64,000 bases of DNA from a virus. Every line of letters begins with the position of its first letter. The stretch's first letter is position 1. Under the pieces are notes generated by a model. The model did not search any database, was not told where the DNA came from, and saw nothing but the letters and a program-made list of their open reading frames with translations. The DNA lies in the IMG/VR virus record IMGVR_UViG_3300032236_001457, positions 37,835-101,834 of that record; one strand, given 5' to 3'. This document shows, in pieces, positions 53,319-64,000 of this stretch. A program made the position numbers and the translations under genes.

Positions 53319-53600
53319 ATGGATTCTGATTTTTTTAAATTAATCGCCGAGTTAGGTTTTCCTATCGCAGCCGCATGTGCATCGGGATATTTTGTATTCC
53401 TCACTATCAAGTTTATTTTAGCAGGTGTTACTAGCAGTGTCAATAGTATGAATAATATTGTTCGTGGGTTAGATGACAGAATTGACACCATGACAGACGA
53501 ATTACAAAGACTTGATATTAAAATTAGTCAAACACTAGGGCTTGACCCTGATTATGATCGCATTGCTAGAGCAGAGCGTATAGATCACCGGAGAGACTAA
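53319..53600 (+). CDS. single-TM coiled-coil protein (holin-like?)
   Basis: LIAELGFPIAA; late-type TAAATA and GGAGG upstream. Confidence 0.5.
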   Translation: MDSDFFKLIAELGFPIAAACASGYFVFLTIKFILAGVTSSVNSMNNIVRGLDDRIDTMTDELQRLDIKISQTLGLDPDYDRIARAERIDHRRD

Positions 53601-54478: not shown

Positions 54479-55105
54479 ATGAGCGAAATTGCTGTTACTT
54501 CGATACGTGAAACATTGAGAATTCAACGTTGGGACGACCACAGATACTATCATCACAGTAGAATTAATCAATTTTTACATTTGATTTCGGCTACCAGCTT
54601 TCTAGTTGCTTATGTGTATTTGTTCATTAATCCTGTAATTAGTGCTTACATTGCTTGGTTCATTGCCATGACTACTAGACAAATTGGTCATTTCTTTTTT
54701 GAGCCCGATGGATATGATGAATACAATAAAGCCACTTTTGAATATAAAGAAAAAATCAAAGTTGGGTTCAACTTAAAACGAAAAAGAGTATTGTTAACCT
54801 GTTGGGCATTAGTTCCTGTATTAGCCTTTTTTGATGCTGCTAACTTTAACTTAATCATGCCGGATACTAGTCCGGATACATTGTTTAACCGCATCGGTTG
54901 GGGATGGTTATGGTTGGGTGTAGCAGGAGTGGTATTTAGAATGATTCAACTTACTGCGATTGAAAGCCGTCGCACTGCTATCACTTGGTGTATTAAGATC
55001 GTTACAGATCCATTCCACGATGTAATAATTTATCGTAACAGTTGGTTATACTTATTACGGGGCCAACTAATTGACCCCGATCTACGCCAAGATTACGAAG
55101 ATTAA
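54479..55105 (+). CDS. Mpo1/DUF962-like membrane protein
   Basis: HHSRINQFLH and RQIGHFFFE His motifs, 4 TM; TATAAATA upstream. Confidence 0.6.
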   Translation: MSEIAVTSIRETLRIQRWDDHRYYHHSRINQFLHLISATSFLVAYVYLFINPVISAYIAWFIAMTTRQIGHFFFEPDGYDEYNKATFEYKEKIKVGFNLKRKRVLLTCWALVPVLAFFDAANFNLIMPDTSPDTLFNRIGWGWLWLGVAGVVFRMIQLTAIESRRTAITWCIKIVTDPFHDVIIYRNSWLYLLRGQLIDPDLRQDYED

Positions 55106-55728: not shown

Positions 55729-57651
55729 TCATCTCCTATACTGTTGCTCTATCATCTGTTGATGTAGGCGATCTGTTGATAACTGCCTTAATGCCCTAGC
55801 ATTATCAACTGGTGTTTGATTTTTATAAATCTCCTTTGGTTCATACATTTTTCCATCTTGTAGCATTAAACTGGTATAACTGCCATATCCAACTGGGGTT
55901 GTGGCTAATTTACTGATATCCACTCCACCTGCTAGTTCGTTATCCGATACTGAGGTTTTAATTGGTTGAGCAGATTCTGTAGTATTGGTAGTGGTTACTG
56001 CGGTCTTTGATTCAACAACTTCGTTCAGTGGATCTGTGCGATTGGTCATAAAACCTGCTGTGTTACTGACCTGTTCTATTTCTGCTTGTCTAGCGAAACT
56101 CACCTGCTGTGCTGTGGCCTGTTGCTGTTGTTCAACCGGTGCTGCTGCCATAGCATAGAACATGGTGTTCTGTGGTTGAGTATAAGCCGAAATCATTGTG
56201 GACTGTTGGGAGTCTGTGTTGGCCTGTGAGAATGTTGGAGTGTTAGTTGTTGTTACGGTTATAGGAACAACTGTTACCAAAGGTGCAGTAGTGGCAGATT
56301 TATTAGGCTGCGGTGGCAGTGTAGGTATGCTGGGTGCATCCTGAACTGTCTGTGTTGATGTAGGCTGTGTCCTAGAAAAATAAGACTGTAGTGTGGGTAT
56401 GCTGAACTGTTGTGTGTCTACATTAGAAACGCTTGAAACTACGGTTGCATTGGTAGTAACAGGAGTTGATGTCCTCGGTGCTGGCATTTGAAAAGTAGGC
56501 GATACTGAAACAGATTTATTTTCATTGTTGGAATTAGCAGTGTTAGGAGTAGGTGGTGCTAATGTTGTTTGGCTTGTGGTAGGGCTAGCAACAGGAGTAG
56601 TTGATTGCCGTTGTGTTTGAATTGTTGCATTAGACAGTGCTTGACTCATTGCGGCCGAACTAGCAGCAACGGCTACAGCCTGTTGTTGTGCTGCGGTAGC
56701 TGATGCGGCTGCTTCTGCTACGGCTGCTTGTGATACACTGGTTTGTAATGCCTGTGTTTGTTGTTGATTCCTAGCAATTAAATTCAGTGCTGTGGCCACG
56801 GTTTTAGACGGTGGTTTAATGGCAGCAGTATCCGTTTGTGATTTATTAGTTGTGCTAACAGTTACAGCAGGTGCGGTAGTAATGGCAACTGTTTCTACTG
56901 CGGGGGCCGCGGTTACTGCCATACTAGGAATAACTGTTGGGTTTTTAGCGCTCATTGCTGCGGCATAGCCTGGACATGCTGGGCTACTAGTAGGATCTGT
57001 AGCACAAGGATCAACACGATATTTTAGATTGAAACTGACATTGGTGATTTCTGGACCATAATTGCCTGCCCAATAGTTGTTGTCTCTGCCAATGAATCCA
57101 TACTGTGCCGCTCTATAACTTGTTGCTAGACTGGGATTGGCAAATGTTTCACTAAAATTAAAATTGGTCCAATCATATTGTCTATTAGTATATTGACCAT
57201 AACCATATAGGGCAGCCACACCACCGTCGGGTCTGTAAAATTGCACATAGGCATTCAAATAGTCTTGTCTACCGTCATCCCACCCATTGCCATTTTTAGC
57301 CATAAAGCCAAAATTAAATCCAGTAACTTGTAGATTATTACCTGCTGCTTTTAACGCTGCATTTATGTTGACTACTTGATATAGATTAACTCCTCCATAA
57401 CTAAAGTTAATATTACCAGATTGATTAACACTTGGATAAGGTCCGCAGTTACCTGGATCACCAGCATGAAAGCATATTGTATTGGTATAAACGCCATTGA
57501 CCCAGTTACCGGTTGTGGCCGTAGGTGTACCGGTAAAATTAACTAGATTACCGGTGGTAGGGTCCGGAGTTAATGCGTTAGTGGAAGCCGAATAGCTTGA
57601 AAGCAAACATGCCCAATAAACTACCCAAACCAATTTTCTTAAGGCTGTCAT
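55729..57651 (-). CDS. exported protein with Ser/Thr/Gln/Ala-rich stalk
   Basis: Beta-rich N-domain, DPC...SPACPGY, long low-complexity region. Confidence 0.65.
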   Translation of the reverse strand: MTALRKLVWVVYWACLLSSYSASTNALTPDPTTGNLVNFTGTPTATTGNWVNGVYTNTICFHAGDPGNCGPYPSVNQSGNINFSYGGVNLYQVVNINAALKAAGNNLQVTGFNFGFMAKNGNGWDDGRQDYLNAYVQFYRPDGGVAALYGYGQYTNRQYDWTNFNFSETFANPSLATSYRAAQYGFIGRDNNYWAGNYGPEITNVSFNLKYRVDPCATDPTSSPACPGYAAAMSAKNPTVIPSMAVTAAPAVETVAITTAPAVTVSTTNKSQTDTAAIKPPSKTVATALNLIARNQQQTQALQTSVSQAAVAEAAASATAAQQQAVAVAASSAAMSQALSNATIQTQRQSTTPVASPTTSQTTLAPPTPNTANSNNENKSVSVSPTFQMPAPRTSTPVTTNATVVSSVSNVDTQQFSIPTLQSYFSRTQPTSTQTVQDAPSIPTLPPQPNKSATTAPLVTVVPITVTTTNTPTFSQANTDSQQSTMISAYTQPQNTMFYAMAAAPVEQQQQATAQQVSFARQAEIEQVSNTAGFMTNRTDPLNEVVESKTAVTTTNTTESAQPIKTSVSDNELAGGVDISKLATTPVGYGSYTSLMLQDGKMYEPKEIYKNQTPVDNARALRQLSTDRLHQQMIEQQYRR

Positions 57652-59134
57652 CTTCTTTTACCTCTATTGCTACTGGCATTTTTTCAGGATTAGCTTCCCA
57701 TGCCGCTCTTGCTGCATCACCAATCTTGCCTTCATATGGGCAAGGAGTACCTGCTGACCACATAGCATCAAATACACGGCGATCTTGACACATAGTAGCT
57801 ACAGCAGCCACTTTCATTCCCATGTCATATAATGTTTTGGCTAGTTTCAATCTTTCACAATTGACATCTCTAATAGTGGATCCGCTGCTTACACCAAAGA
57901 TTTGTGTTTGAACAGCACCACTTACGCCGGTGGTACATAGGTCAGCATTACCGCCACTCATCATTGTTGGGGCAATTGCTGTGGGCGGTGGTTGTATGAC
58001 TCGCTGTGTGATCTCCGATGAGTTGATATTGCGGTTTGTCATGTCACCAGTTTGTACATTTTGATTAACATTGTTGCTGTTATTGACATTATTACTAGTG
58101 CTTGCGCTGACACTGGTATTCACATTATTGTTATTATTGGTCATTGTGCCAGTGTTAATGTTGTTATTGGTATTAACATTGCTATTTGAACTGGTGCTGG
58201 TATTAATATTCCTATTAGTCATGCTGCCACTAGTAATGTTATTATTAGTATTAACATTGGTACTAGTGCTTGTGCTAGCATTGTTATTGTTATAAGTCAT
58301 TGTACCAGTATTAACATTGATATTTTTATTTGTATTGCTACTGGTGCTGTTACTTGTATTAATGTTATTATTAGTCATTGTACCATAATTGTAATTAGTG
58401 CTTGTACTGGTGTTAATGTTTTTATTCACATTATTGCTAGTACTGCTATTGAGATTAACATTTTTATTAACCGAGCTACTAACATTATTGTTATTATATG
58501 TCATCGTACCACTGTTAATGTTATTATTGGTATTGACATTTGTGCTTGTGCTACTACTGGTGCTAGCATTATTGTTATTATATGTCATCGTGCCACTGTT
58601 AATGTTGTTATTAGTATTGACACTGGTACTTGTGCTGGTATTAATATTGCGATTAGTCATATCGCCGGTATTCACATTATTGTTATTGTTTGTTATTGTG
58701 CCACTTTGAATGTTATTGTTAGTATTAACCGATGTACTAGAATTAGTATTGTTATTATTGTTTGTTACAGTTCCGCTTTGAATGTTATTGTTATTGTAGG
58801 TAACGGTTCCGCTATTAACGTTGTTATTGTTATTGTTGTAGGTAACGGTGCCACTATTAACGTTGTTGTTTGTTACAGTGCCACTTTGAATATTATTATT
58901 TGTATTAACACTGGTGTTGAGGTTAGTGCTGTTACTGTTTACCGTGGACTGGCTAGTGCTTGTGCTATTGCTTGTGCTGTTATTTGTGGTGTTAACAATG
59001 CTGGTGCTGTTACTGGTACTATTGGTATCTACCAGTGTCTTTGAATCGTAGCCACCTTGATTGATTAATGTTTGAGCATTGGTGGCAGTAATGGCAAAAA
59101 TCATACCAATACTTACTACTATTTTTTTGAACAT
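57578..59134 (-). CDS. exported Asn/Thr/Ser-repeat protein with Cys-rich C-terminal domain and TM anchor
   Basis: Signal peptide; repeated NTNNNIxSGTMTYNNNN; QPPPTAIAP...CERLKLAK...CQD...GTPCP. Confidence 0.75.
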   Translation of the reverse strand: MFKKIVVSIGMIFAITATNAQTLINQGGYDSKTLVDTNSTSNSTSIVNTTNNSTSNSTSTSQSTVNSNSTNLNTSVNTNNNIQSGTVTNNNVNSGTVTYNNNNNNVNSGTVTYNNNNIQSGTVTNNNNNTNSSTSVNTNNNIQSGTITNNNNNVNTGDMTNRNINTSTSTSVNTNNNINSGTMTYNNNNASTSSSTSTNVNTNNNINSGTMTYNNNNVSSSVNKNVNLNSSTSNNVNKNINTSTSTNYNYGTMTNNNINTSNSTSSNTNKNINVNTGTMTYNNNNASTSTSTNVNTNNNITSGSMTNRNINTSTSSNSNVNTNNNINTGTMTNNNNNVNTSVSASTSNNVNNSNNVNQNVQTGDMTNRNINSSEITQRVIQPPPTAIAPTMMSGGNADLCTTGVSGAVQTQIFGVSSGSTIRDVNCERLKLAKTLYDMGMKVAAVATMCQDRRVFDAMWSAGTPCPYEGKIGDAARAAWEANPEKMPVAIEVKEDDSLKKIGLGSLLGMFAFKLFGFH

Positions 59135-59189: not shown

Positions 59190-60188
59190 TCATTTATCTA
59201 CCAAGTTATCTCTGAATATACGCCAGCACTCTTCCCAACTCCAACGTAGACTAGCTTCTTCTACTCTAACACGATCTAGTCTCAAACATTGGTCTATAGC
59301 AACTTTTAGATCCTCATCCATATAACCTGTTATTCCCTGATCAATAACATCTTTAGGACCGGTCACTGGATATGCTGCTACTGGGGTGCCGCAGGCCATG
59401 GCTTCGATCATTACTATACCAAATGTATCCCACCGACTGGGGAATACAAATACATCAGCATCGGCGTAATGTTTAGCTAACTCTGCCCCGCGTTTTACTC
59501 CAACGAACTGTACATCGGGGTATTCACGCTCCATACGACGACGGCATGGACCATCACCTACTACTATTTTAGTAGCACCGGGATAATATAGTCTACAAAA
59601 GTCATCTAAATTCTTTTCTTTGCTTACACGGCCTACACTTAACAATATAGGTTGTGACTGTTCTGTGGCAGTTCTACTACTGCTACCAAATACTTTACGA
59701 TCGACACCGCGAGTCCATGGTTTAATATCAGTTCTAAACCCACGACTGACCAAATCATCTACCATGCTTTGTGTAGTGGTTAGCACACGGCCGCTGTGTT
59801 TATGAAACCAGCGTAGGTATCGATAACTCCAATCTGTGGGTATGCCTGCAATTTTTTCTATGGCTTCAGGAAAACGGGTATGATAACTGGTATTATATCG
59901 CCAGCCCCAATAGTCCATCCAGCAACGAGCAGCAAATCCTACTGGGCCTTCTGTGGCAATATGTATGTAGTCAGGATTTACTCGTTCGATGATTTTGCCA
60001 ATGCCCCACGTCCAGCTAAGTTTAATCTCACTATAGCCAGGACAGGGAATATTAGCAAACTGCCGGGGATCAAGATAAACAAAATCATAGCCATCACGCT
60101 CAGCAAGGATTTCCAAGTTGTGAAATGTTGTAACAACGCCGTTAACTTGTGCAGGTTCATTATCTGTTATAATTAAAACTTTTTTCAT
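59190..60188 (-). CDS. GT4 diacylglycerol glycosyltransferase (Agt-like)
   Basis: QVNGVVTT, HIATEGP, SYHTRFPE, VGRVSKEKN, DTFGIVMIEAMACG. Confidence 0.8.
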   Translation of the reverse strand: MKKVLIITDNEPAQVNGVVTTFHNLEILAERDGYDFVYLDPRQFANIPCPGYSEIKLSWTWGIGKIIERVNPDYIHIATEGPVGFAARCWMDYWGWRYNTSYHTRFPEAIEKIAGIPTDWSYRYLRWFHKHSGRVLTTTQSMVDDLVSRGFRTDIKPWTRGVDRKVFGSSSRTATEQSQPILLSVGRVSKEKNLDDFCRLYYPGATKIVVGDGPCRRRMEREYPDVQFVGVKRGAELAKHYADADVFVFPSRWDTFGIVMIEAMACGTPVAAYPVTGPKDVIDQGITGYMDEDLKVAIDQCLRLDRVRVEEASLRWSWEECWRIFRDNLVDK

Positions 60189-61075
60189 TGTATTTTAAAT
60201 TTTATGTAGTCTGTTATTATATCTGCAACATTGACTCCACAATATTTTTCAAATCCTGAAAATCCCGGATTGCTATTTGCTTCGCATACTCTAAATCCAC
60301 GACTATCAAATAATAAATCAATGCCCGCGATATCTAAGTTTAATGCTCTAGCCGTTTCTCTAGCTATATATTCTATTTCATCTGTAACAGGAAAACTTTC
60401 TCCTGTGCCACCACCGGTAATATTAGCACGGAAATCACCTTCGGGTGCTGTGCGTTTCATGGCACCTATTACTTTTCCGCCAACTACCAGAACACGAAGA
60501 TCTTCCCCCACTCGTTCGCCTAGATATTCCTGTACGATCATTGTTTTCTTGTTACCTAAGTTATCGATAAATTCCATTAATTTTTTATAATCTCTTTGTT
60601 TTTCACAAAGGTAAACTCCTTCACCGTAACTACCTGTAACAACTTTTACTACACAAGGGAATCCTATATTATCTTTTACTAAGTTATCATCGATGGGCAT
60701 ACGCACCATCATAGTGTTAGGGATTGGTATACTATATCTACTTAATATTTGACTTGTTCTTAATTTATCTTTAACTGTTTCAATAGCAACACTACCATTG
60801 ACACAATGAACTCCGGCCTGTTCTAAATGACGAATAACGGCCAATTGAAAAGGAAGTATACCAGCACCTAGTCGTACAAGTACTAAACTAGGCAGATCCA
60901 TATCCTTACCATTATATTTTAATCCTTTGTGTATGTCACGATCAACAATGATATCAAAATCATCTGGATGTGCCATAGTTATTGGAATACCTTTGGCTTC
61001 AAAACTTTCGACCAGTTTGTTAGATTCATATTCGTTACGATCTAACTTTGTTATCATTAAGACTTTTTTATACAT
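60185..61075 (-). CDS. rimK: RimK family ATP-grasp ligase
   Basis: DKL, GSYGEGV, VQEY, DLRV, DFRAN, GIDLL, EANSNPG. Confidence 0.85.
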   Translation of the reverse strand: MYKKVLMITKLDRNEYESNKLVESFEAKGIPITMAHPDDFDIIVDRDIHKGLKYNGKDMDLPSLVLVRLGAGILPFQLAVIRHLEQAGVHCVNGSVAIETVKDKLRTSQILSRYSIPIPNTMMVRMPIDDNLVKDNIGFPCVVKVVTGSYGEGVYLCEKQRDYKKLMEFIDNLGNKKTMIVQEYLGERVGEDLRVLVVGGKVIGAMKRTAPEGDFRANITGGGTGESFPVTDEIEYIARETARALNLDIAGIDLLFDSRGFRVCEANSNPGFSGFEKYCGVNVADIITDYIKFKIQ

Positions 61076-61236
61076 CGACCTTCTACCTTGAAACTGTCAA
61101 ACTTGAGCCAATAATCAATACTATTTAAACTGCGTTCGCAGGCCGCTTGGCTATCAAACTCCAGTGTTACTCGCCCGGGAATATCGTTAGAATTAGTTTT
61201 GTGTACTGCTAACAGTATTAATAGCCATGTTGTCAT
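61057..61236 (-). CDS. 59-aa exported mini-protein
   Basis: MTTWLLILLAV...EFDSQAACE...RCIKKS by manual translation. Confidence 0.5.
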   Translation of the reverse strand: MTTWLLILLAVHKTNSNDIPGRVTLEFDSQAACERSLNSIDYWLKFDSFKVEGRCIKKS

Positions 61237-61990
61237 CTTTACGCACCTCTGCCCACGTTACGATTTCCCAACGACCATCCCAATGTTCAACCAGTGCTGT
61301 ACAACTTTCGCACCAATCGCCATCATTCATGTAGGTTATGCCGTTAATATCTTTAATTTCGGCCTTGTGAATATGACCGCAGATTACACCATCGTAGCCT
61401 TTCTTTTTACAATAATTGGCTAGATTTAGTTCAAACTGGAACATAAAGTCTACCGCTTTTTTGACACGGTGCTTAAGGAACAGGCTAAGGCTCCAGTAGC
61501 CAAAACCCATACGATGACGAATCCAATTGAATTTAGTATTAATGTTGAGTACGCAGTCATATGCTTTGTCTCCTAACATGCTGAGCCATGGTGCTAATCT
61601 TGTAATACCGTCAAACATATCGCCATGCACTACAAGATATCTCTTGCCATCTAATCCGATATGTTCTGCTTGGTTACAAATTTTAATTCGACCAAAACTT
61701 ACACCATATGGTATAAGCGGGCGTAAAAATTCATCATGGTTACCTGCTATGTAAATTACTTGGGTTCCATGTTTGGCATGGCCCAATACACGGCGAATCA
61801 CATTGGTATGGCTTTGATGCCACTTCAGTGTGTTTTGTTTCATTTTCCATGCATCTATTATATCGCCTACTAGATATAATGTTTCACATGTATTATTTTT
61901 GAGAAAATTATTTAGAAAGTCTGCTTTACAGGCTTTGGTACCAAGGTGTACATCGCTGATAGAGATTGTACGGTAAGTTTTCTTCGGCAT
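61193..61990 (-). CDS. plcP: PlcP-like phospholipase C (LpxH-superfamily metallophosphoesterase)
   Basis: SDVHLG, VGDIID, GNHD, HGD, CGHIH, NDGDWCESCTALVE; linked to Agt-like GT. Confidence 0.75.
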   Translation of the reverse strand: MPKKTYRTISISDVHLGTKACKADFLNNFLKNNTCETLYLVGDIIDAWKMKQNTLKWHQSHTNVIRRVLGHAKHGTQVIYIAGNHDEFLRPLIPYGVSFGRIKICNQAEHIGLDGKRYLVVHGDMFDGITRLAPWLSMLGDKAYDCVLNINTKFNWIRHRMGFGYWSLSLFLKHRVKKAVDFMFQFELNLANYCKKKGYDGVICGHIHKAEIKDINGITYMNDGDWCESCTALVEHWDGRWEIVTWAEVRKDDNMAINTVSSTQN

Positions 61991-62012
61991 AATATTATTT
62001 AACTTTAGCAAT

Positions 62013-62030
62013 ATTACAATCCTATTACAG
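62013..62030 (-). promoter_or_regulatory. Pho box (PhoB-binding site)
   Basis: CTGTAAT-AGGA-TTGTAAT, 11-bp-spaced direct repeat matching CTGTCAT-N4-CTGTCAT, 22 bp upstream of the plcP ATG. Confidence 0.7.
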
Positions 62031-62033
62031 CCA

Positions 62034-62058
62034 TAAAAAAAGAGCCTTTCGGCTCTTT
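62034..62058 (-). terminator. intrinsic terminator
   Basis: AAAGAGCC-GAAA-GGCTCTTTTTTT. Confidence 0.85.
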
Positions 62059-62104
62059 AGTGCTGGTTACGAGCATCCAGCGATCCCTCTATCATGGGCC
62101 CGAT

Positions 62105-62323
62105 TTACAATTGCCCTCCACAATGTGGGCATTTATGCTCTGAACTTTTACGGAGTTGCTTGAGGGTAGAGTTCCAACTTTTGATTTCCTTAATAACAGA
62201 TTTCAAAGTTCGCCGATTTCGTTCCTTTTTATCTTTAGCTAATTCATCTTTAAGACGCTTGCGCAAAAGACCTACTCGTTGTTCGAATACCGCTATAAAC
62301 CCACCACCAGCATCTCCGCTCAT
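62105..62323 (-). CDS. small basic protein with C-terminal CPHCG
   Basis: GGAG SD; coiled coil plus Zn knuckle. Confidence 0.55.
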   Translation of the reverse strand: MSGDAGGGFIAVFEQRVGLLRKRLKDELAKDKKERNRRTLKSVIKEIKSWNSTLKQLRKSSEHKCPHCGGQL

Positions 62324-62389
62324 TTGCTCTCTCCTGTTGTGTTTCTAACATTATACAATACTTTTGGTAACTTAGCAACAGTATTTGGC

Positions 62390-63649
62390 TTAAGGTTTGA
62401 CCATTCTCGTCCATTTAAATGGGCCAAATGCGTCAACACCATGAGCAGCATTTACGCTAGGATCAATAGTCAACTTCAAATACTCTAGTGGCAATGTGCT
62501 ACCGTGATAAGTGATTCTGTGAAAGTTAGGAACATTGTATCCGCCTGGCTGATTCAGATAAGCATCAGTGCCATATACACTGAGCCCGGCAGTATCAGCA
62601 CAGGTATTAGCAGTAACACCCGAAGTAACACCGACTCCCCCAGTATTGACCACTAGGTCTTTTACACAACTAAATCCCGAAACAAACGGGTTATCACTGC
62701 GATAAGCATGAGAGTCACCATTCAGCAACAGCACAGGATTACCAAATGACTTGGCAGCAGTGGCTAGTGCATCAACTAATGGTTTGTGCTGTGTCAAGTG
62801 GGCACGACCTGCTACAAAGTCAGTGGTGTCTGGGTCCCACATGTCGCCCTGTACAGTGATTACAACACCAGCAACCTTATTGGTAGTGGCCTGCGTGAAT
62901 GCTGTATTGAGCCAACGAATATTGGCAGCAGTACGATTAGCAATTTCTGCTGTTTGGGCAGCAGTCATAGTAGGGGTACCATACCAAATGTCATTGTCGT
63001 TGTTGGACCCACCGGGCACATTTAAGGTAACAAACAGCACATTGTTCTTAATGAACCAAACATTCTCTACATAGTCTTTATCAGTGGGGAATTTGGTATC
63101 ATATTCAACCGCTTGACTATGCACAGCCATTGCTCCACCAATAGTCTTACCTGCTGTAGGAAAGAAAATTTGGCGAACTAATGCTAGGTTAGCGATAGGA
63201 TCACCACCGGCATAACTAACTGGTTTGCCATCAGTGCCTAATACATAGTTAATAGCGTTGGTTGTAGCACTATACGATCCACCGCCCTGTTTGACTTTAT
63301 GACAATCAGTCCACTCATTATCACCTGGTGTATAAACAATAGGCAATGTGATTGCTGTAGTAAGTTGGCTGTAGATACTACGGTCATATGCTTCTGTGCA
63401 GTATTCTTTACCGCTGTGAATATCACCACCGTGGATAACAAAACTAAGGTCCTTGTCATCATTAATGGTTTTCAAAAAAGCAGGTTGTAATAGGAACTGA
63501 GCTGTATCTGTTGGAGTAAGACCATATGGTGTATCACCAATTACACCTACGCTGAATTTTTGTGATACTGGTGCTGCTGCGTTATCGCTGCCACATGCCG
63601 CAAGACATACTACTAGTCCTGCAGCAAGCACTGAGAGTTTTAATTTCAT
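62390..63649 (-). CDS. lipoprotein metallophosphoesterase (secreted phosphatase-like)
   Basis: LAAC lipobox; GDTPY, HGGDI, PGDNEW, GDSH. Confidence 0.8.
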   Translation of the reverse strand: MKLKLSVLAAGLVVCLAACGSDNAAAPVSQKFSVGVIGDTPYGLTPTDTAQFLLQPAFLKTINDDKDLSFVIHGGDIHSGKEYCTEAYDRSIYSQLTTAITLPIVYTPGDNEWTDCHKVKQGGGSYSATTNAINYVLGTDGKPVSYAGGDPIANLALVRQIFFPTAGKTIGGAMAVHSQAVEYDTKFPTDKDYVENVWFIKNNVLFVTLNVPGGSNNDNDIWYGTPTMTAAQTAEIANRTAANIRWLNTAFTQATTNKVAGVVITVQGDMWDPDTTDFVAGRAHLTQHKPLVDALATAAKSFGNPVLLLNGDSHAYRSDNPFVSGFSCVKDLVVNTGGVGVTSGVTANTCADTAGLSVYGTDAYLNQPGGYNVPNFHRITYHGSTLPLEYLKLTIDPSVNAAHGVDAFGPFKWTRMVKP

Positions 63650-63669
63650 CGAATTTTCCTTTTGTTAGT

Positions 63670-64000
63670 TTATTTTACGAGTTTTGCCCAATCGGCACGG
63701 ACTTGATCCTTAACCTTTTGGGGTAGTGGAACATAGTCTAAATCAGTTGCTTCTTTGTCGCCCTTGTTATACACCCAATCAAAGAACTTAATGACTTGTT
63801 TTGTTTTCTCTCCAGTAGGATAGATTAGAATAAATGTAGCGGCTGTGATGGGCCATCCATCTAGATCATTTAGATTGACTGCCATGTTAGGCACTGACCA
63901 ATCTGCTGTTTTAGCACTTTCAGCAAATGTTAAGTCATCCGGTTGAACAACAACACCTTTGCGATTTCGCATAGCCACATGAGTTAGTTTGCTCTGTTTA
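63670..64000 (-). CDS. pstS: phosphate ABC transporter binding protein, C-terminal part (truncated at window edge)
   Basis: WPITAATFIL, KFFDW...G...LDYVPLP. Confidence 0.85.
   Translation of the reverse strand, partial: KQSKLTHVAMRNRKGVVVQPDDLTFAESAKTADWSVPNMAVNLNDLDGWPITAATFILIYPTGEKTKQVIKFFDWVYNKGDKEATDLDYVPLPQKVKDQVRADWAKLVK

What the first reader, a model, noticed from the sequence alone, without database searches (positions are those of the whole stretch)
59190..64000. Phage-borne, Pho-box-controlled membrane lipid remodelling and phosphate scavenging system
Seen: pstS, a lipoprotein phosphoesterase, a terminator, then a Pho box (CTGTAAT-AGGA-TTGTAAT, 62013-62030) overlapping the promoter region of a GNHD-type PlcP-like gene. 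An Agt-like GT4 lies downstream on the same strand, and galE/UDP-sugar genes are elsewhere in the window. Known: under P starvation, PhoB-induced PlcP cleaves phospholipids to DAG and Agt converts DAG to glucosyl/glucuronosyl lipids; LpxH has GNRD rather than GNHD. Inference: the phage senses host P status and mines membrane phospholipid phosphorus for its own DNA while back-filling with glycolipid. This goes well beyond the familiar pstS/phoH auxiliary genes.
Basis: partly seen in the sequence, partly recalled or inferred. Interest (0 to 1): 0.8.

Follow-up and report, generated by a model that had tools for sequence, protein, structure and literature searches.

The report
Phage phosphate-starvation lipid-swap gene cassette
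A giant T4-like lake phage carries, behind a phosphate-starvation control site, its own copies of the two bacterial enzymes that cut the phosphate head off membrane lipids and put a sugar in its place, next to phosphate-uptake genes; it therefore probably draws phosphorus for its DNA from the host membrane, which is untested and absent from the papers I could search.

Summary
All genes lie on the minus strand. In order they are pstS (cut by the contig end), a lipoprotein metallophosphoesterase, a 72-aa ORF, a conserved two-hairpin element, an intrinsic terminator, a Pho box (62013-62030), a -10 element 10 nt further on, plcP-like, a 59-aa ORF, a RimK-type ligase and an Agt-type GT4.

- **plcP-like gene:** it is not LpxH. 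It fails both LpxH models, has GNHD, and sits in a clade split from LpxH with 100% support.
- **Bacterial operon match:** its bacterial relatives lie directly upstream of GT4 genes. These are 40-48% identical to the phage GT4 and carry the published Agt motifs.
- **Spread in phages:** at least 217 IMG/VR phage loci hold the gene, and 50 of 62 have a glycosyltransferase right behind it.
- **Control site:** the same site (7-4-7 repeat, 10-11 nt, TAAATA) precedes phage pstS and plcP and almost nothing else. It is enriched 219-fold, and all five composite hits in 1.25 Mb of related phage DNA are at these genes.
- **Regulator:** no phage PhoB-type gene was found.

Enzyme activity, PhoB binding and expression are untested. 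No searched paper describes this in a virus. GenBank phages label the gene lpxH. This scan has already noted the cassette in at least 35 other genomes. The linked sugar-supply claim is unsupported.

The parts
63670..64000 (-). pstS, 3' part only (C-terminal 109 aa); the gene runs off the contig end
   Evidence: NCBIfam PstS equivalogs NF008171 (E 1.2e-24) and TIGR00975 over the part present. The contig ends here.
62390..63649 (-). Lipoprotein metallophosphoesterase (419 aa), probably co-transcribed with pstS (20-nt gap with AAGGAAAA)
   Evidence: Lipobox LAAC with invariant Cys19. Invariant D39, D76, N111, H284 and H314 in 30 homologues. AlphaFold pLDDT 82. Best PDB folds are purple acid phosphatase/phytase, PhoD and acid sphingomyelinase, E about 1e-6. 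No Pfam hit for this copy. Homologues lie in Betaproteobacteria MAGs, some with PF00149.
62105..62323 (-). 72-aa ORF of unknown function (C-terminal CPHCGG), with a sigma-70-like promoter at 62378-62350
   Evidence: ORF list. Promoter scan TTGCTA-17-TATAAT. Homologues stand before the two-hairpin element in L172 and L176. No family hit.
62059..62106 (-). Conserved two-hairpin intergenic element (about 42 nt)
   Evidence: 29 aligned copies; 5 of 10 pairs show compensatory changes. No Rfam match. One copy in this contig. At least 119 IMG/VR loci hold it, mostly just after pstS or agt, or just before plcP.
62031..62058 (-). Intrinsic terminator (stem 62058-62039, then a T run)
   Evidence: Terminator scan: 8 pairs, GAAA loop, tail TTTTATGGCT.
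62013..62030 (-). Pho box: CTGTAAT-AGGA-TTGTAAT
   Evidence: Matches 11 of 14 half-site bases of CTGTCAT-N4-CTGTCAT. This is the only strict copy in 101.8 kb. The same motif at the same place is found in 20 of 64 related phage loci and upstream of phage pstS.
61996..62002 (-). -10-like element TTAAAT/TAAATA, 10-11 nt after the Pho box and 5-6 nt before the ATG; there is no -35
   Evidence: Read from the sequence. Phage pstS promoters have the same spacing and element. All composite-pattern hits are at pstS or plcP. The scan found no sigma-70 -35/-10 pair here.
61193..61990 (-). plcP-like metallophosphoesterase (265 aa): predicted phospholipase C of the lipid-renovation pathway
   Evidence: Pfam Metallophos. 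LpxH models far below cut-off. GNHD motif. Tree. LpxH-like fold with a helical lid. Bacterial orthologues are followed by agt.
61057..61236 (-). 59-aa ORF with a hydrophobic N-terminus and two Cys; overlaps the end of plcP and the start of rimK
   Evidence: Conserved at 44-89% identity right after plcP in 38 of 62 phage loci. No family hit. Not found in the bacterial plcP-agt loci.
60185..61075 (-). RimK-family ATP-grasp ligase (296 aa) inserted between plcP and agt
   Evidence: TIGR00768 232.5 bits (cut-off 143.4). The S6-glutamate ligase equivalog is below its cut-off (162.7 against 331). Pfam RimK. The same insertion occurs in only a few relatives: L040, L169, and L041 and L127 nearby.
59190..60188 (-). 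Agt-type GT4 glycosyltransferase (332 aa): predicted diacylglycerol glucosyl/glucuronosyl transferase
   Evidence: Pfam GT4 domains. It is 40-48% identical over its full length to the GT4 genes next to bacterial plcP. It carries GRVSKEKN, FPSRWDTFG, H103, T159-R160, D254 and W318, matching the published GTcp/Agt residues.

Best explanation
The region is a phage-borne phosphate-stress module in two transcription units.

Unit 1 (pstS, lipoprotein metallophosphoesterase, 72-aa ORF) ends at a two-hairpin element and a terminator. It would act in the periplasm: the esterase frees phosphate from organic esters and PstS captures it for the host PstCAB transporter.

Unit 2 starts at a promoter with no -35 and with a Pho box 10 bp upstream of the -10. 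It would therefore fire only when the host's phosphorylated PhoB is present. It encodes a PlcP-type phospholipase C and an Agt-type glycosyltransferase, plus a 59-aa protein and a RimK-type ligase of unknown role. PlcP would cut phospholipids to diacylglycerol plus a phosphorylated head group. Agt would turn the diacylglycerol into glucosyl- or glucuronosyl-diacylglycerol.

The net effect would be to move membrane phosphorus into the nucleotide pool for a genome of about 335-370 kb, while the membrane stays intact until lysis.

Shown here: gene identities at family, clade and motif level, operon anatomy, conservation of the cassette and of the control site in hundreds of related phage contigs, and specificity of the site for pstS and plcP.

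Inferred: enzyme activities, PhoB binding, phosphate-dependent expression and benefit to the phage.
For: **PlcP, not LpxH**
- The LpxH equivalogs score 46.8 and 39.8 bits against cut-offs of 134 and 190.
- Solved LpxH structures match only the N-terminal half at E about 1e-5 and have GNRD where the phage protein has GNHD.
- Genomes hold both a close relative (47-53% identity) and a true LpxH: SAR86 genomes and G069, whose LpxH scores 271 bits.
- The tree splits LpxH from the PlcP-like clade with 100% SH-aLRT. The phage sequences form one clade (99%) nested among the bacterial ones.
- The model's best 25 PDB hits are all LpxH, with a helical lid insertion at residues 123-197. This fits a lipid substrate.
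- 124 of 401 sampled Pseudomonadota genomes have a homologue at 36-59% identity. Characterised PlcPs are 46-51% identical to each other (PMC8528852, PMC9239053).

**Agt**
- 10 of the 14 best bacterial homologues have a GT4 directly downstream that is 40-48% identical to the phage GT4.
- Those bacterial GT4s carry GR[VIL]AxEKN and FPSxTDTFG exactly as published for GTcp/Agt (PMC8231724).
- The phage protein keeps these motifs with one change each. It also keeps the catalytic His, the signature Asp, Thr-Arg and Trp.

**Cassette**
- 217 IMG/VR loci hold the plcP-like gene.
- 50 of 62 non-redundant loci have a GT4 (30) or a GT2 (20) right after plcP.
- pstS is often adjacent, also in the isolate Pelagibacter phage Mosig.

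**Control site**
- The architecture is identical upstream of phage pstS genes.
- Its density is 2.6 per kb in the 120 nt before plcP against 0.012 per kb elsewhere, p = 2.5e-36. Of the 19 other hits, 11 lie before pstS.
- The composite pattern gives 5 hits in 1.25 Mb of related phage genomes, all at pstS or plcP, and none for the reversed control.
- No OmpR/PhoB-type regulator is found in these phages, including genomes 95% and 100% complete.
- Host PhoBR control of cyanophage pstS is established (cited in PMC10976474). Pho boxes precede bacterial plcP-agt (PMC4796936, PMC8528852).
Against: - No enzyme assay, lipid analysis, PhoB binding test or transcript data exist. No RNA sequencing run holding this DNA was listed.
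- I could not align the phage protein directly with an experimentally characterised PlcP, because no such sequence was available through the tools. The link rests on clade, operon context and published identity ranges.
- The authors of PMC10976474 warn that predicted Pho boxes in phage genomes often fail experimentally.
- The ATG lies only 5-6 nt after the -10 element. The mRNA would be leaderless or the start site is elsewhere, and TAAATA also resembles the last six bases of the T4 late promoter TATAAATA.
- The host is unknown, so its PhoB site preference is unknown.
- PlcP releases a phosphorylated head group, not free phosphate. The phosphatase that would finish the job in the cytoplasm is not identified.
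- The roles of RimK and the 59-aa protein are unexplained.
- In 23 of 34 related phage GT4s the signature Asp is Glu, a change that cut GTcp activity by more than 90% (PMC8231724). This window's copy keeps Asp.
Confidence: 0.7

Rival explanations
1. The metallophosphoesterase is a lipid A enzyme (LpxH, as GenBank and IMG annotate it) and the GT4 acts on LPS or another envelope glycan. On this view the phage alters the outer membrane rather than phospholipids.
For: IMG names the homologues LpxH. GenBank names those of phages Mosig and S-SRM01 UDP-2,3-diacylglucosamine hydrolase. LpxH is the nearest solved fold. The window holds many other glycan genes.
Against: The LpxH family cut-offs are missed by a wide margin. 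The motif is GNHD, not GNRD. The clade is separate, with 100% support, and coexists with true LpxH in the same genomes. Homologues occur in genomes where no LpxH was found. The partner GT4 carries the DAG-glycosyltransferase (Agt) motifs, not those of LPS transferases. A Pho-type site and the pstS linkage have no place in lipid A synthesis.
Confidence: 0.04
2. The enzymes do remodel membrane lipids, but the pay-off is not phosphorus supply. Glycolipid-rich membranes might block superinfection by other phages, resist host or grazer attack, or stabilise the envelope of a cell that must support a very long jumbo-phage infection.
For: Lipid renovation changes phage attachment, antibiotic resistance and grazing in bacteria (PMC9938194, PMC8528852 and PMC9457565, listed). 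The window is rich in surface-glycan genes. Secreted Asn/Ser/Thr-rich proteins follow agt here and in L026.
Against: The cassette is tied to pstS and, in relatives, to phosphate porins. It shares the pstS-type control site. That points to phosphate economy as the selected function. The two benefits are not exclusive.
Confidence: 0.12
3. The direct repeat is not read by host PhoB. It could be the site of an unidentified phage or host factor, or part of a phage promoter class, so that the operon follows the infection programme regardless of phosphate.
For: The box matches the consensus at 11 of 14 bases. The -10-like TAAATA resembles the T4 late element. The ATG follows almost at once. Predicted phage Pho boxes have failed tests before (PMC10976474).
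Against: In 1.25 Mb of related phage genomes the composite motif stands only before pstS and plcP. Variants in relatives approach the consensus (GTGTCAC-AGAA-TTGTCAT, TTGTCAC-AGTA-TTGTCAT). The spacing to the -10 equals that of classical Pho promoters, and no -35 is present. No PhoB-type gene is found in the phages.
Confidence: 0.12

Closest known systems
Bacterial PlcP-Agt lipid-renovation operon (Sinorhizobium meliloti, Phaeobacter sp. MED193, SAR11 HTCC7211, P. aeruginosa PA3219/PA3218, Methylosinus trichosporium OB3b)
   Same: The same two enzyme clades occur in the same order on one strand behind a Pho box. The phage PlcP is 36-59% identical to the bacterial homologues found in the sampled genomes. 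The phage Agt is 40-48% identical to the plcP-adjacent GT4s, which carry the published Agt motifs (PMC4796936, PMC8528852, PMC8231724, PMC9239053).
   Different: It is carried by a lytic-type T4-like jumbo phage. A phage-specific 59-aa gene lies between the two enzyme genes, and here a RimK-type ligase as well. It is joined to pstS and a lipoprotein phosphoesterase. In a third of relatives the GT4 is replaced by a GT2. Activity is untested.
Cyanophage phosphate genes (pstS, phoA) under host PhoBR control (P-SSM2; S-PM2d)
   Same: A T4-like phage carries host-derived phosphate-stress genes behind host-type Pho boxes, so that the host's sensor sets their expression (PMC10976474).
   Different: The cyanophage sets hold uptake and phosphatase genes only. 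The cyanobacterial box is PyTTAAPyPy(T/A), whereas here it is the proteobacterial CTGTCAT type. Lipid renovation genes are not part of the cyanophage sets described there.
LpxH (UDP-2,3-diacylglucosamine diphosphatase)
   Same: The same metallophosphoesterase fold with a helical lid. LpxH is the best structural match, and this is the name given by automatic annotation.
   Different: The phage protein fails both NCBIfam LpxH models, has GNHD instead of GNRD, lies in a separate clade, and coexists with real LpxH in the same genomes.
Pelagibacter phage Mosig EXVC030M gene Mosig_00120 ('putative UDP-2,3-diacylglucosamine hydrolase')
   Same: It is 47% identical, sits in a cultured T4-like phage and lies next to pstS.
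   Different: It is transcribed divergently from pstS and has no glycosyltransferase next to it. It branches apart from the freshwater phage clade, with bacterial sequences, which suggests a separate acquisition.

Membership tests
PlcP (phosphate-starvation phospholipase C) | Calcineurin-like metallophosphoesterase with an LpxH-like fold and a helical lid | tested here: met
   Pfam Metallophos. Motifs DVH, GD, GNHD, H122 and GHIH. The model's best 25 PDB hits are all LpxH, and helices 123-197 are inserted where the LpxH lid sits.
PlcP (phosphate-starvation phospholipase C) | A clade distinct from LpxH, present beside or without LpxH | tested here: met
   Tree split with 100% support. SAR86 genomes and G069 hold both paralogues. 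LpxH models score 40-47 bits against cut-offs of 134-190.
PlcP (phosphate-starvation phospholipase C) | Encoded directly upstream of an Agt-type glycosyltransferase | tested here: met
   10 of the 14 best bacterial homologues. 30 of 62 phage loci have a GT4 and 20 a GT2. In this window the pair is in one operon but separated by two inserted genes.
PlcP (phosphate-starvation phospholipase C) | Sequence identity to an experimentally characterised PlcP | not tested
Only published ranges (46-51% among characterised PlcPs) could be compared with the 36-59% seen here.
PlcP (phosphate-starvation phospholipase C) | Hydrolyses PE, PG or PC to diacylglycerol plus a phospho-head group | not testable with these tools
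   Needs an enzyme assay or lipidomics.
Agt / GTcp clade of GT4 (diacylglycerol glucosyl/glucuronosyl transferase) | UDP-sugar motifs GRVAxEKN and FPSxTDTFG, with Asp in place of the usual GT4 Glu | tested here: met
   The phage has GRVSKEKN (186-193) and FPSRWDTFG (249-257) with D254. The bacterial plcP-adjacent GT4s match the published motifs exactly.
Agt / GTcp clade of GT4 (diacylglycerol glucosyl/glucuronosyl transferase) | Catalytic His104 and DAG-contact residues Thr162, Arg163 and Trp320 of GTcp | tested here: met
   H103, T159, R160 and W318 are invariant in 34 phage copies. The residue roles are taken from PMC8231724.
Agt / GTcp clade of GT4 (diacylglycerol glucosyl/glucuronosyl transferase) | Uses diacylglycerol as acceptor with UDP-Glc or UDP-GlcA as donor | not testable with these tools
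   Needs expression and lipid analysis. NCBIfam DAG-glucosyltransferase equivalogs are only weakly hit, and none of them models the Agt clade.
LpxH | Reaches the curated score of NF003743 or TIGR01854 | tested here: not met
   46.8 against 134 bits and 39.8 against 190.35 bits. Bacterial relatives score 31-41 bits, while a true LpxH in G069 scores 271.
LpxH | GNRD in the third metallophosphoesterase motif | tested here: not met
   GNHD at residues 83-86. In the alignment to K. pneumoniae LpxH the phage GNHD lines up with GNRD.
PhoB-dependent (Pho regulon) promoter | Two 7-bp direct repeats like CTGTCAT, 4-bp spacer, 11-bp period | tested here: met
   CTGTAAT-AGGA-TTGTAAT matches 11 of 14 bases. 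Relatives have TTGTCAC and TTGTCAT variants. The consensus is as cited in PMC8528852.
PhoB-dependent (Pho regulon) promoter | Box replaces the -35 and lies about 10 bp upstream of the -10 | tested here: met
   10 nt to TTAAAT, and no -35/-10 pair was found by the scan. Phage pstS genes have the same spacing. The reference spacing comes from my own knowledge of E. coli phoA and pstS.
PhoB-dependent (Pho regulon) promoter | Bound by phosphorylated PhoB and induced at low phosphate | not testable with these tools
   No RNA run was listed. Needs a gel shift and a reporter.
RimK family (alpha-L-glutamate ligases) | Reaches the TIGR00768 cut-off; S6-specific equivalog | tested here: inconclusive
   The subfamily model is met (232.5 against 143.4). 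The S6-glutamate ligase equivalog is not met (162.7 against 331). The substrate is unknown.

The most novel reading that the evidence does not exclude
Giant freshwater T4-like phages run a small Pho regulon of their own, read by the host's PhoB. It turns the host's phospholipid membrane into a phosphorus store for phage DNA and rebuilds the membrane from sugar lipids. The phage-specific 59-aa protein, and here a RimK-type ligase, adapt the bacterial pathway to infection, for example by tethering the enzymes or by modifying the glucuronosyl lipid. This would be the first virus-encoded lipid-renovation pathway. It would also add a term to lake phosphorus budgets that virus surveys currently file under lipid A synthesis.
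Probability: 0.5. Interest if true: 0.8.

Novelty: new variant of a known kind. Interest (0 to 1): 0.62.

Why it matters
- **New class of phage phosphate gene:** known phage phosphate genes (pstS, phoA, phoH) act on uptake or are of unclear role. A phage-borne PlcP-Agt pair would show that viruses also tap an internal pool. Membrane lipids hold a large share of cell phosphorus, and a 335-370-kb genome needs about 0.7 million phosphate groups per copy (my own arithmetic).
- **Mislabelled in surveys:** the cassette is in hundreds of uncultured phage contigs and is labelled lpxH, so surveys of viral metabolic genes misread it.
- **A testable host-to-phage signal:** the shared control site gives a clean test of host-to-phage signalling outside cyanobacteria.
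- **Not new to this scan:** the scan has met the same cassette in at least 35 other genomes. What is new in this window is the variant: the RimK insertion, and a lipoprotein metallophosphoesterase that I did not find in IMG/VR.

Tried and rejected
- **Genome-contig scan:** exact peptide patterns reached only SAR86 genomes at 46% identity.
- **RNA evidence:** no RNA holder was listed for this stretch, and I did not lay reads.
- **Rfam:** it gave nothing for the two-hairpin element.
- **Second Pho-box-like match** (53490-53507, minus strand): it lies antisense inside a small plus-strand ORF and has no TAAATA after it. I take it as chance.
- **Lipoprotein esterase:** no relative was found in IMG/VR with the protein or its alignment. 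None was found in 401 sampled Pseudomonadota genomes at E 1e-30. The 524-aa lipoprotein in the same slot of L026 is unrelated.
- **Sugar supply:** Pfam on ten neighbouring ORFs at 39.7-49.8 kb found sulfotransferase, RCC1, GT17 and methyltransferase genes but no UDP-sugar enzyme. No UDP-glucose dehydrogenase is on the contig. I dropped the idea that the window supplies Agt's donor.
- **Bacterial plcP upstream regions:** they show only half-site-like TGTCAT/TGTCAC words under my strict pattern, so I claim no new evidence there.
- **Literature:** searches for a phage plcP or agt found none. The library lacks most subscription journals.

Full report
**Where the window lies.** The window is the last 64 kb of a 101,834-base virus record, and the contig ends inside pstS. 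CheckV rates the record 27% complete. Four related IMG/VR records carry the same cassette. They include one of 335 kb (95% complete) and one of 367 kb (100% complete). All four encode a T4 gp23-type capsid protein at E about 1e-98. The carrier is therefore a T4-like jumbo phage. Earlier notes on this genome say the same.

**Anatomy.** All genes are on the minus strand, in this order:
- pstS (63670-63999, C-terminal 109 aa).
- A 20-nt gap containing AAGGAAAA.
- A 419-aa lipoprotein gene (62390-63649).
- A sigma-70-like promoter (62378-62350) and a 72-aa ORF (62105-62323).
- A conserved two-hairpin element (62059-62106).
- An intrinsic terminator (62058-62039, then a T run).
- The repeat CTGTAAT-AGGA-TTGTAAT (62030-62013).
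- Ten bases, then TTAAAT/TAAATA (62002-61996).
- The ATG of the plcP-like gene (61990; the gene ends at 61193).
- A 59-aa ORF (61057-61236) overlapping both neighbours.
- A RimK-family gene (60185-61075).
- A GT4 gene (59190-60188) that starts in an ATGA overlap.

**The phosphoesterase is PlcP-like, not LpxH.**
- Pfam sees only the general Metallophos domain.
- The two NCBIfam LpxH equivalogs score 46.8 and 39.8 bits against cut-offs of 134 and 190.
- Solved LpxH chains match only residues 8-126 at E about 1e-5. In that alignment the phage GNHD lines up with GNRD of LpxH.
- SAR86 genomes hold one relative at 47% identity and a second at 27%.
- Genome G069 has a true LpxH (271 bits) as well as a 53%-identical relative of the phage protein. 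The relatives themselves score 31-41 bits on the LpxH model.
- In a tree of 53 sequences, LpxH and the PlcP-like proteins are split with 100% SH-aLRT. The 35 IMG/VR phage sequences form one clade (99%) nested among bacterial ones. The gene of Pelagibacter phage Mosig branches elsewhere.
- 124 of 401 sampled Pseudomonadota genomes have a homologue at 36-59% identity. Characterised PlcPs are 46-51% identical to each other (PMC8528852; PMC9239053).
- The predicted structure (pLDDT 79) has LpxH as its 25 best PDB matches. It carries two long helices (134-161 and 168-197) where LpxH has its lipid-binding lid. This fits a lipid substrate.
- I could not align the phage protein with a named, characterised PlcP, because none was available through the tools.

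**The GT4 is Agt-like.**
- In 10 of the 14 best bacterial loci, a GT4 that is 40-48% identical to the phage protein over its full length lies directly downstream of the plcP homologue.
- The biochemical study of SAR11 GTcp defines the clade as follows (PMC8231724):
  - the motifs GRVAxEKN and FPSxTDTFG;
  - a His104-Asp256 dyad in which Asp replaces the usual GT4 Glu;
  - the DAG-contact residues Thr162, Arg163 and Trp320.
- The nine bacterial plcP-adjacent GT4s match those motifs exactly.
- The phage protein has GRVSKEKN, FPSRWDTFG, H103, D254, T159-R160 and W318.
- In 23 of 34 related phage copies the Asp is Glu. That change cut GTcp activity by more than 90% in the cited study. This window keeps Asp.

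**The cassette in other phages.**
- 217 IMG/VR stretches encode a relative, most at 72-91% identity.
- Of 62 non-redundant loci with enough downstream sequence, 30 have the GT4 and 20 have a 236-aa GT2 directly after plcP. That GT2 hits Pfam GT2 and, weakly, GT21. The 59-aa ORF is present in 38 of the 62.
- pstS lies just upstream in several loci. Some relatives also carry a phosphate-selective porin.
- The RimK insertion is rare: this window, L040 and L169, with L041 and L127 nearby.
- Among 50,697 GenBank phage records only three distinct records have a relative of the esterase: Mosig, Synechococcus phage S-SRM01 and one gut contig. None has the Agt-like protein.
- In Mosig the gene is annotated as a UDP-2,3-diacylglucosamine hydrolase and lies back to back with pstS.

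**The control site.**
- The strict repeat occurs once in the 101.8-kb contig. The relaxed pattern occurs twice in the window against 0.12 expected. The second copy lies antisense within a small plus-strand ORF and has no -10 element.
- Many related loci have the same kind of repeat upstream of plcP. In them it is followed by (G/T)TAAATA after 11 or 22 nt and then by the start codon. One example is GTGTCAC-AGAA-TTGTCAT in L030.
- Upstream of phage pstS genes the architecture is identical. Examples are TTGTCAC-AGTA-TTGTCAT, 11 nt, TAAATA, and CTTGTAAT-ATTC-CTGTAAC, 11 nt, TAAATA.
- In 64 non-redundant loci the core pattern occurs 20 times in the 120 nt before plcP. It occurs 19 times in the remaining 1.58 Mb counting both strands. 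That is a 219-fold difference, p = 2.5e-36. Eleven of those 19 lie directly before pstS, and two lie before small ORFs that precede plcP.
- The composite pattern (box, 11 nt, TAAATA) was scanned over five phage records totalling 1.25 Mb. It gave five hits, all before pstS or plcP. The reversed control gave none.
- No OmpR/PhoB-type DNA-binding domain is encoded in these records. The reader of the site is therefore most likely a host protein.
- The layout is that of classical Pho promoters: two 7-bp repeats like CTGTCAT with a 4-bp spacer, about 10 bp from the -10, and no -35. The consensus is cited in PMC8528852. The spacing in E. coli phoA and pstS is from my own knowledge.
- Host PhoBR control of a cyanophage pstS is established. 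The same paper warns that predicted phage Pho boxes often fail when tested (PMC10976474).
- The short distance from the -10 element to the ATG implies a leaderless or very short leader. This is unverified.

**The lipoprotein.**
- It has a lipobox with invariant Cys19 and invariant Asp, Asn and His residues in 30 homologues.
- The model (pLDDT 82) resembles purple acid phosphatases and phytases, PhoD and acid sphingomyelinase at E about 1e-6. TM-scores are only 0.36-0.45. The enzyme class is supported but the substrate is not.
- Homologues at 55-60% identity come from Betaproteobacteria MAGs. This hints at the host group.
- I found no relative in IMG/VR or in 401 sampled Pseudomonadota genomes.
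- In L026 a different, unrelated lipoprotein fills the same slot.

**How it most likely works.** When the host is phosphate-starved, phosphorylated PhoB would activate the phage pstS operon and the plcP operon.
- Periplasmic arm: the esterase frees phosphate from organic esters, and PstS feeds it to the host transporter.
- Membrane arm: PlcP cuts phospholipids to diacylglycerol and a phosphorylated head group, and Agt converts the diacylglycerol into glucosyl- or glucuronosyl-diacylglycerol.
- Shown here: identities, order, conservation and site specificity.
- Inferred: the activities, PhoB binding, regulation and benefit to the phage.
- Not identified: the step from phospho-head group to free phosphate.

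**Rivals.**
- An LpxH or LPS role is contradicted by the family, motif, tree and partner-gene evidence.
- An envelope-protection role is possible and not exclusive. The pstS linkage and the shared control site point to phosphate economy.
- A reader other than PhoB for the site cannot be excluded without experiments.

**Novelty.** The pathway and the principle of Pho-controlled phage genes are both known. Their combination in a virus was not found in any paper I could search. This scan has reported the same cassette in at least 35 other genomes. This window is therefore a further member, with two local peculiarities: the RimK insertion and the lipoprotein esterase.

**Side observation: the two-hairpin element.** It has five base pairs with compensatory changes and no Rfam match. 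It recurs in at least 119 phage loci. There it is always in the sense of its neighbours, typically 22 nt after agt, 36-51 nt after pstS, or 4-100 nt before plcP. It also occurs after porin genes and other genes and before hsp20-like genes. It looks like a boundary element of accessory gene cassettes rather than a phosphate-specific signal.

Noticed in passing
window 62059-62106 (minus strand); also L025-L187: A conserved two-hairpin element of about 42 nt. The first stem is variable and covarying, with loop AAGATAGAG. The second hairpin is CTGG-AAYYCGTAA-CCAG. There is no Rfam match and only one copy in this contig. At least 119 IMG/VR loci hold it, mostly just after pstS or agt stop codons or just before plcP. 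It also occurs after phosphate-porin genes and other genes and before hsp20-like genes. It may be a cassette-boundary, RNA-processing or recombination element.
   Followed up: partly
window 61057-61236 (minus strand): A 59-aa ORF with a hydrophobic N-terminus and two Cys, overlapping the plcP stop and the next start. It is conserved (44-89% identity) after plcP in 38 of 62 phage loci. It was not found in the bacterial plcP-agt loci. It has no family hit.
   Followed up: partly
window 60185-61075 (minus strand): A RimK-family ATP-grasp ligase sits inside the plcP-agt operon. It passes the subfamily model but not the S6-glutamate ligase equivalog. The same insertion is seen in only a few relatives (L040, L169). 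Its substrate and any link to lipid remodelling are unknown.
   Followed up: partly
L043:8913-9620, L109, L110 and 20 of 62 related loci: In a third of related phages the Agt-type GT4 is replaced by a 236-aa GT2 (Pfam GT2, weak GT21). A homologous gene lies just upstream of plcP in SAR86 genomes (L007).
   Followed up: partly
L133:5846-7246, L098, L110, L163 and others: Related phages encode phosphate-selective porins (Pfam Porin_O_P, E 1e-42), usually directly after a pstS gene. The phage phosphate gene set is therefore wider than in this window.
   Followed up: partly
L001 6700-6851 (Pelagibacter phage Mosig, MT647606): The 150-nt region between the divergent plcP-like and pstS genes holds TTTAACAA-AAA-CTTAACAT. 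This is an 11-bp-period repeat of the PyTTAAPyPy(T/A) type described for cyanobacterial Pho boxes.
   Followed up: no
window 57578-59134 and 55729-57651 (minus strand): Two large secreted proteins rich in Asn, Ser and Thr follow agt with no terminator between them. A homologue of the first also follows agt in L026. They may belong to the same transcript. Their function is unknown (PHROG 20531 only).
   Followed up: no
alignment of 34 phage GT4 copies, position 254 of the window protein: 23 of 34 related phage Agt-like proteins have Glu where Agt/GTcp has its signature Asp. The D256E change cut GTcp activity by more than 90% in PMC8231724. This window and its closest relatives keep Asp.
   Followed up: partly
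L026:4874-6445: In the closest large relative, the slot after pstS holds an unrelated 524-aa lipoprotein with no Pfam hit. The gene after phage pstS is therefore a variable lipoprotein position.
   Followed up: partly
window 54479-55105 (plus strand): A 208-aa ORF with a weak Mpo1-like hit (2-hydroxy-palmitic acid dioxygenase family; 22.6 bits against a cut-off of 24). It lies 4 kb from the cassette. Other notes of this scan mention Mpo1-like and desaturase genes beside the cassette in other phages.
   Followed up: no
window 53490-53507 (minus strand): A second exact match to the relaxed Pho-box pattern (TTGTAATTCGTCTGTCAT). It lies antisense inside a small plus-strand ORF and has no -10-like element after it, so it is probably chance.
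   Followed up: yes
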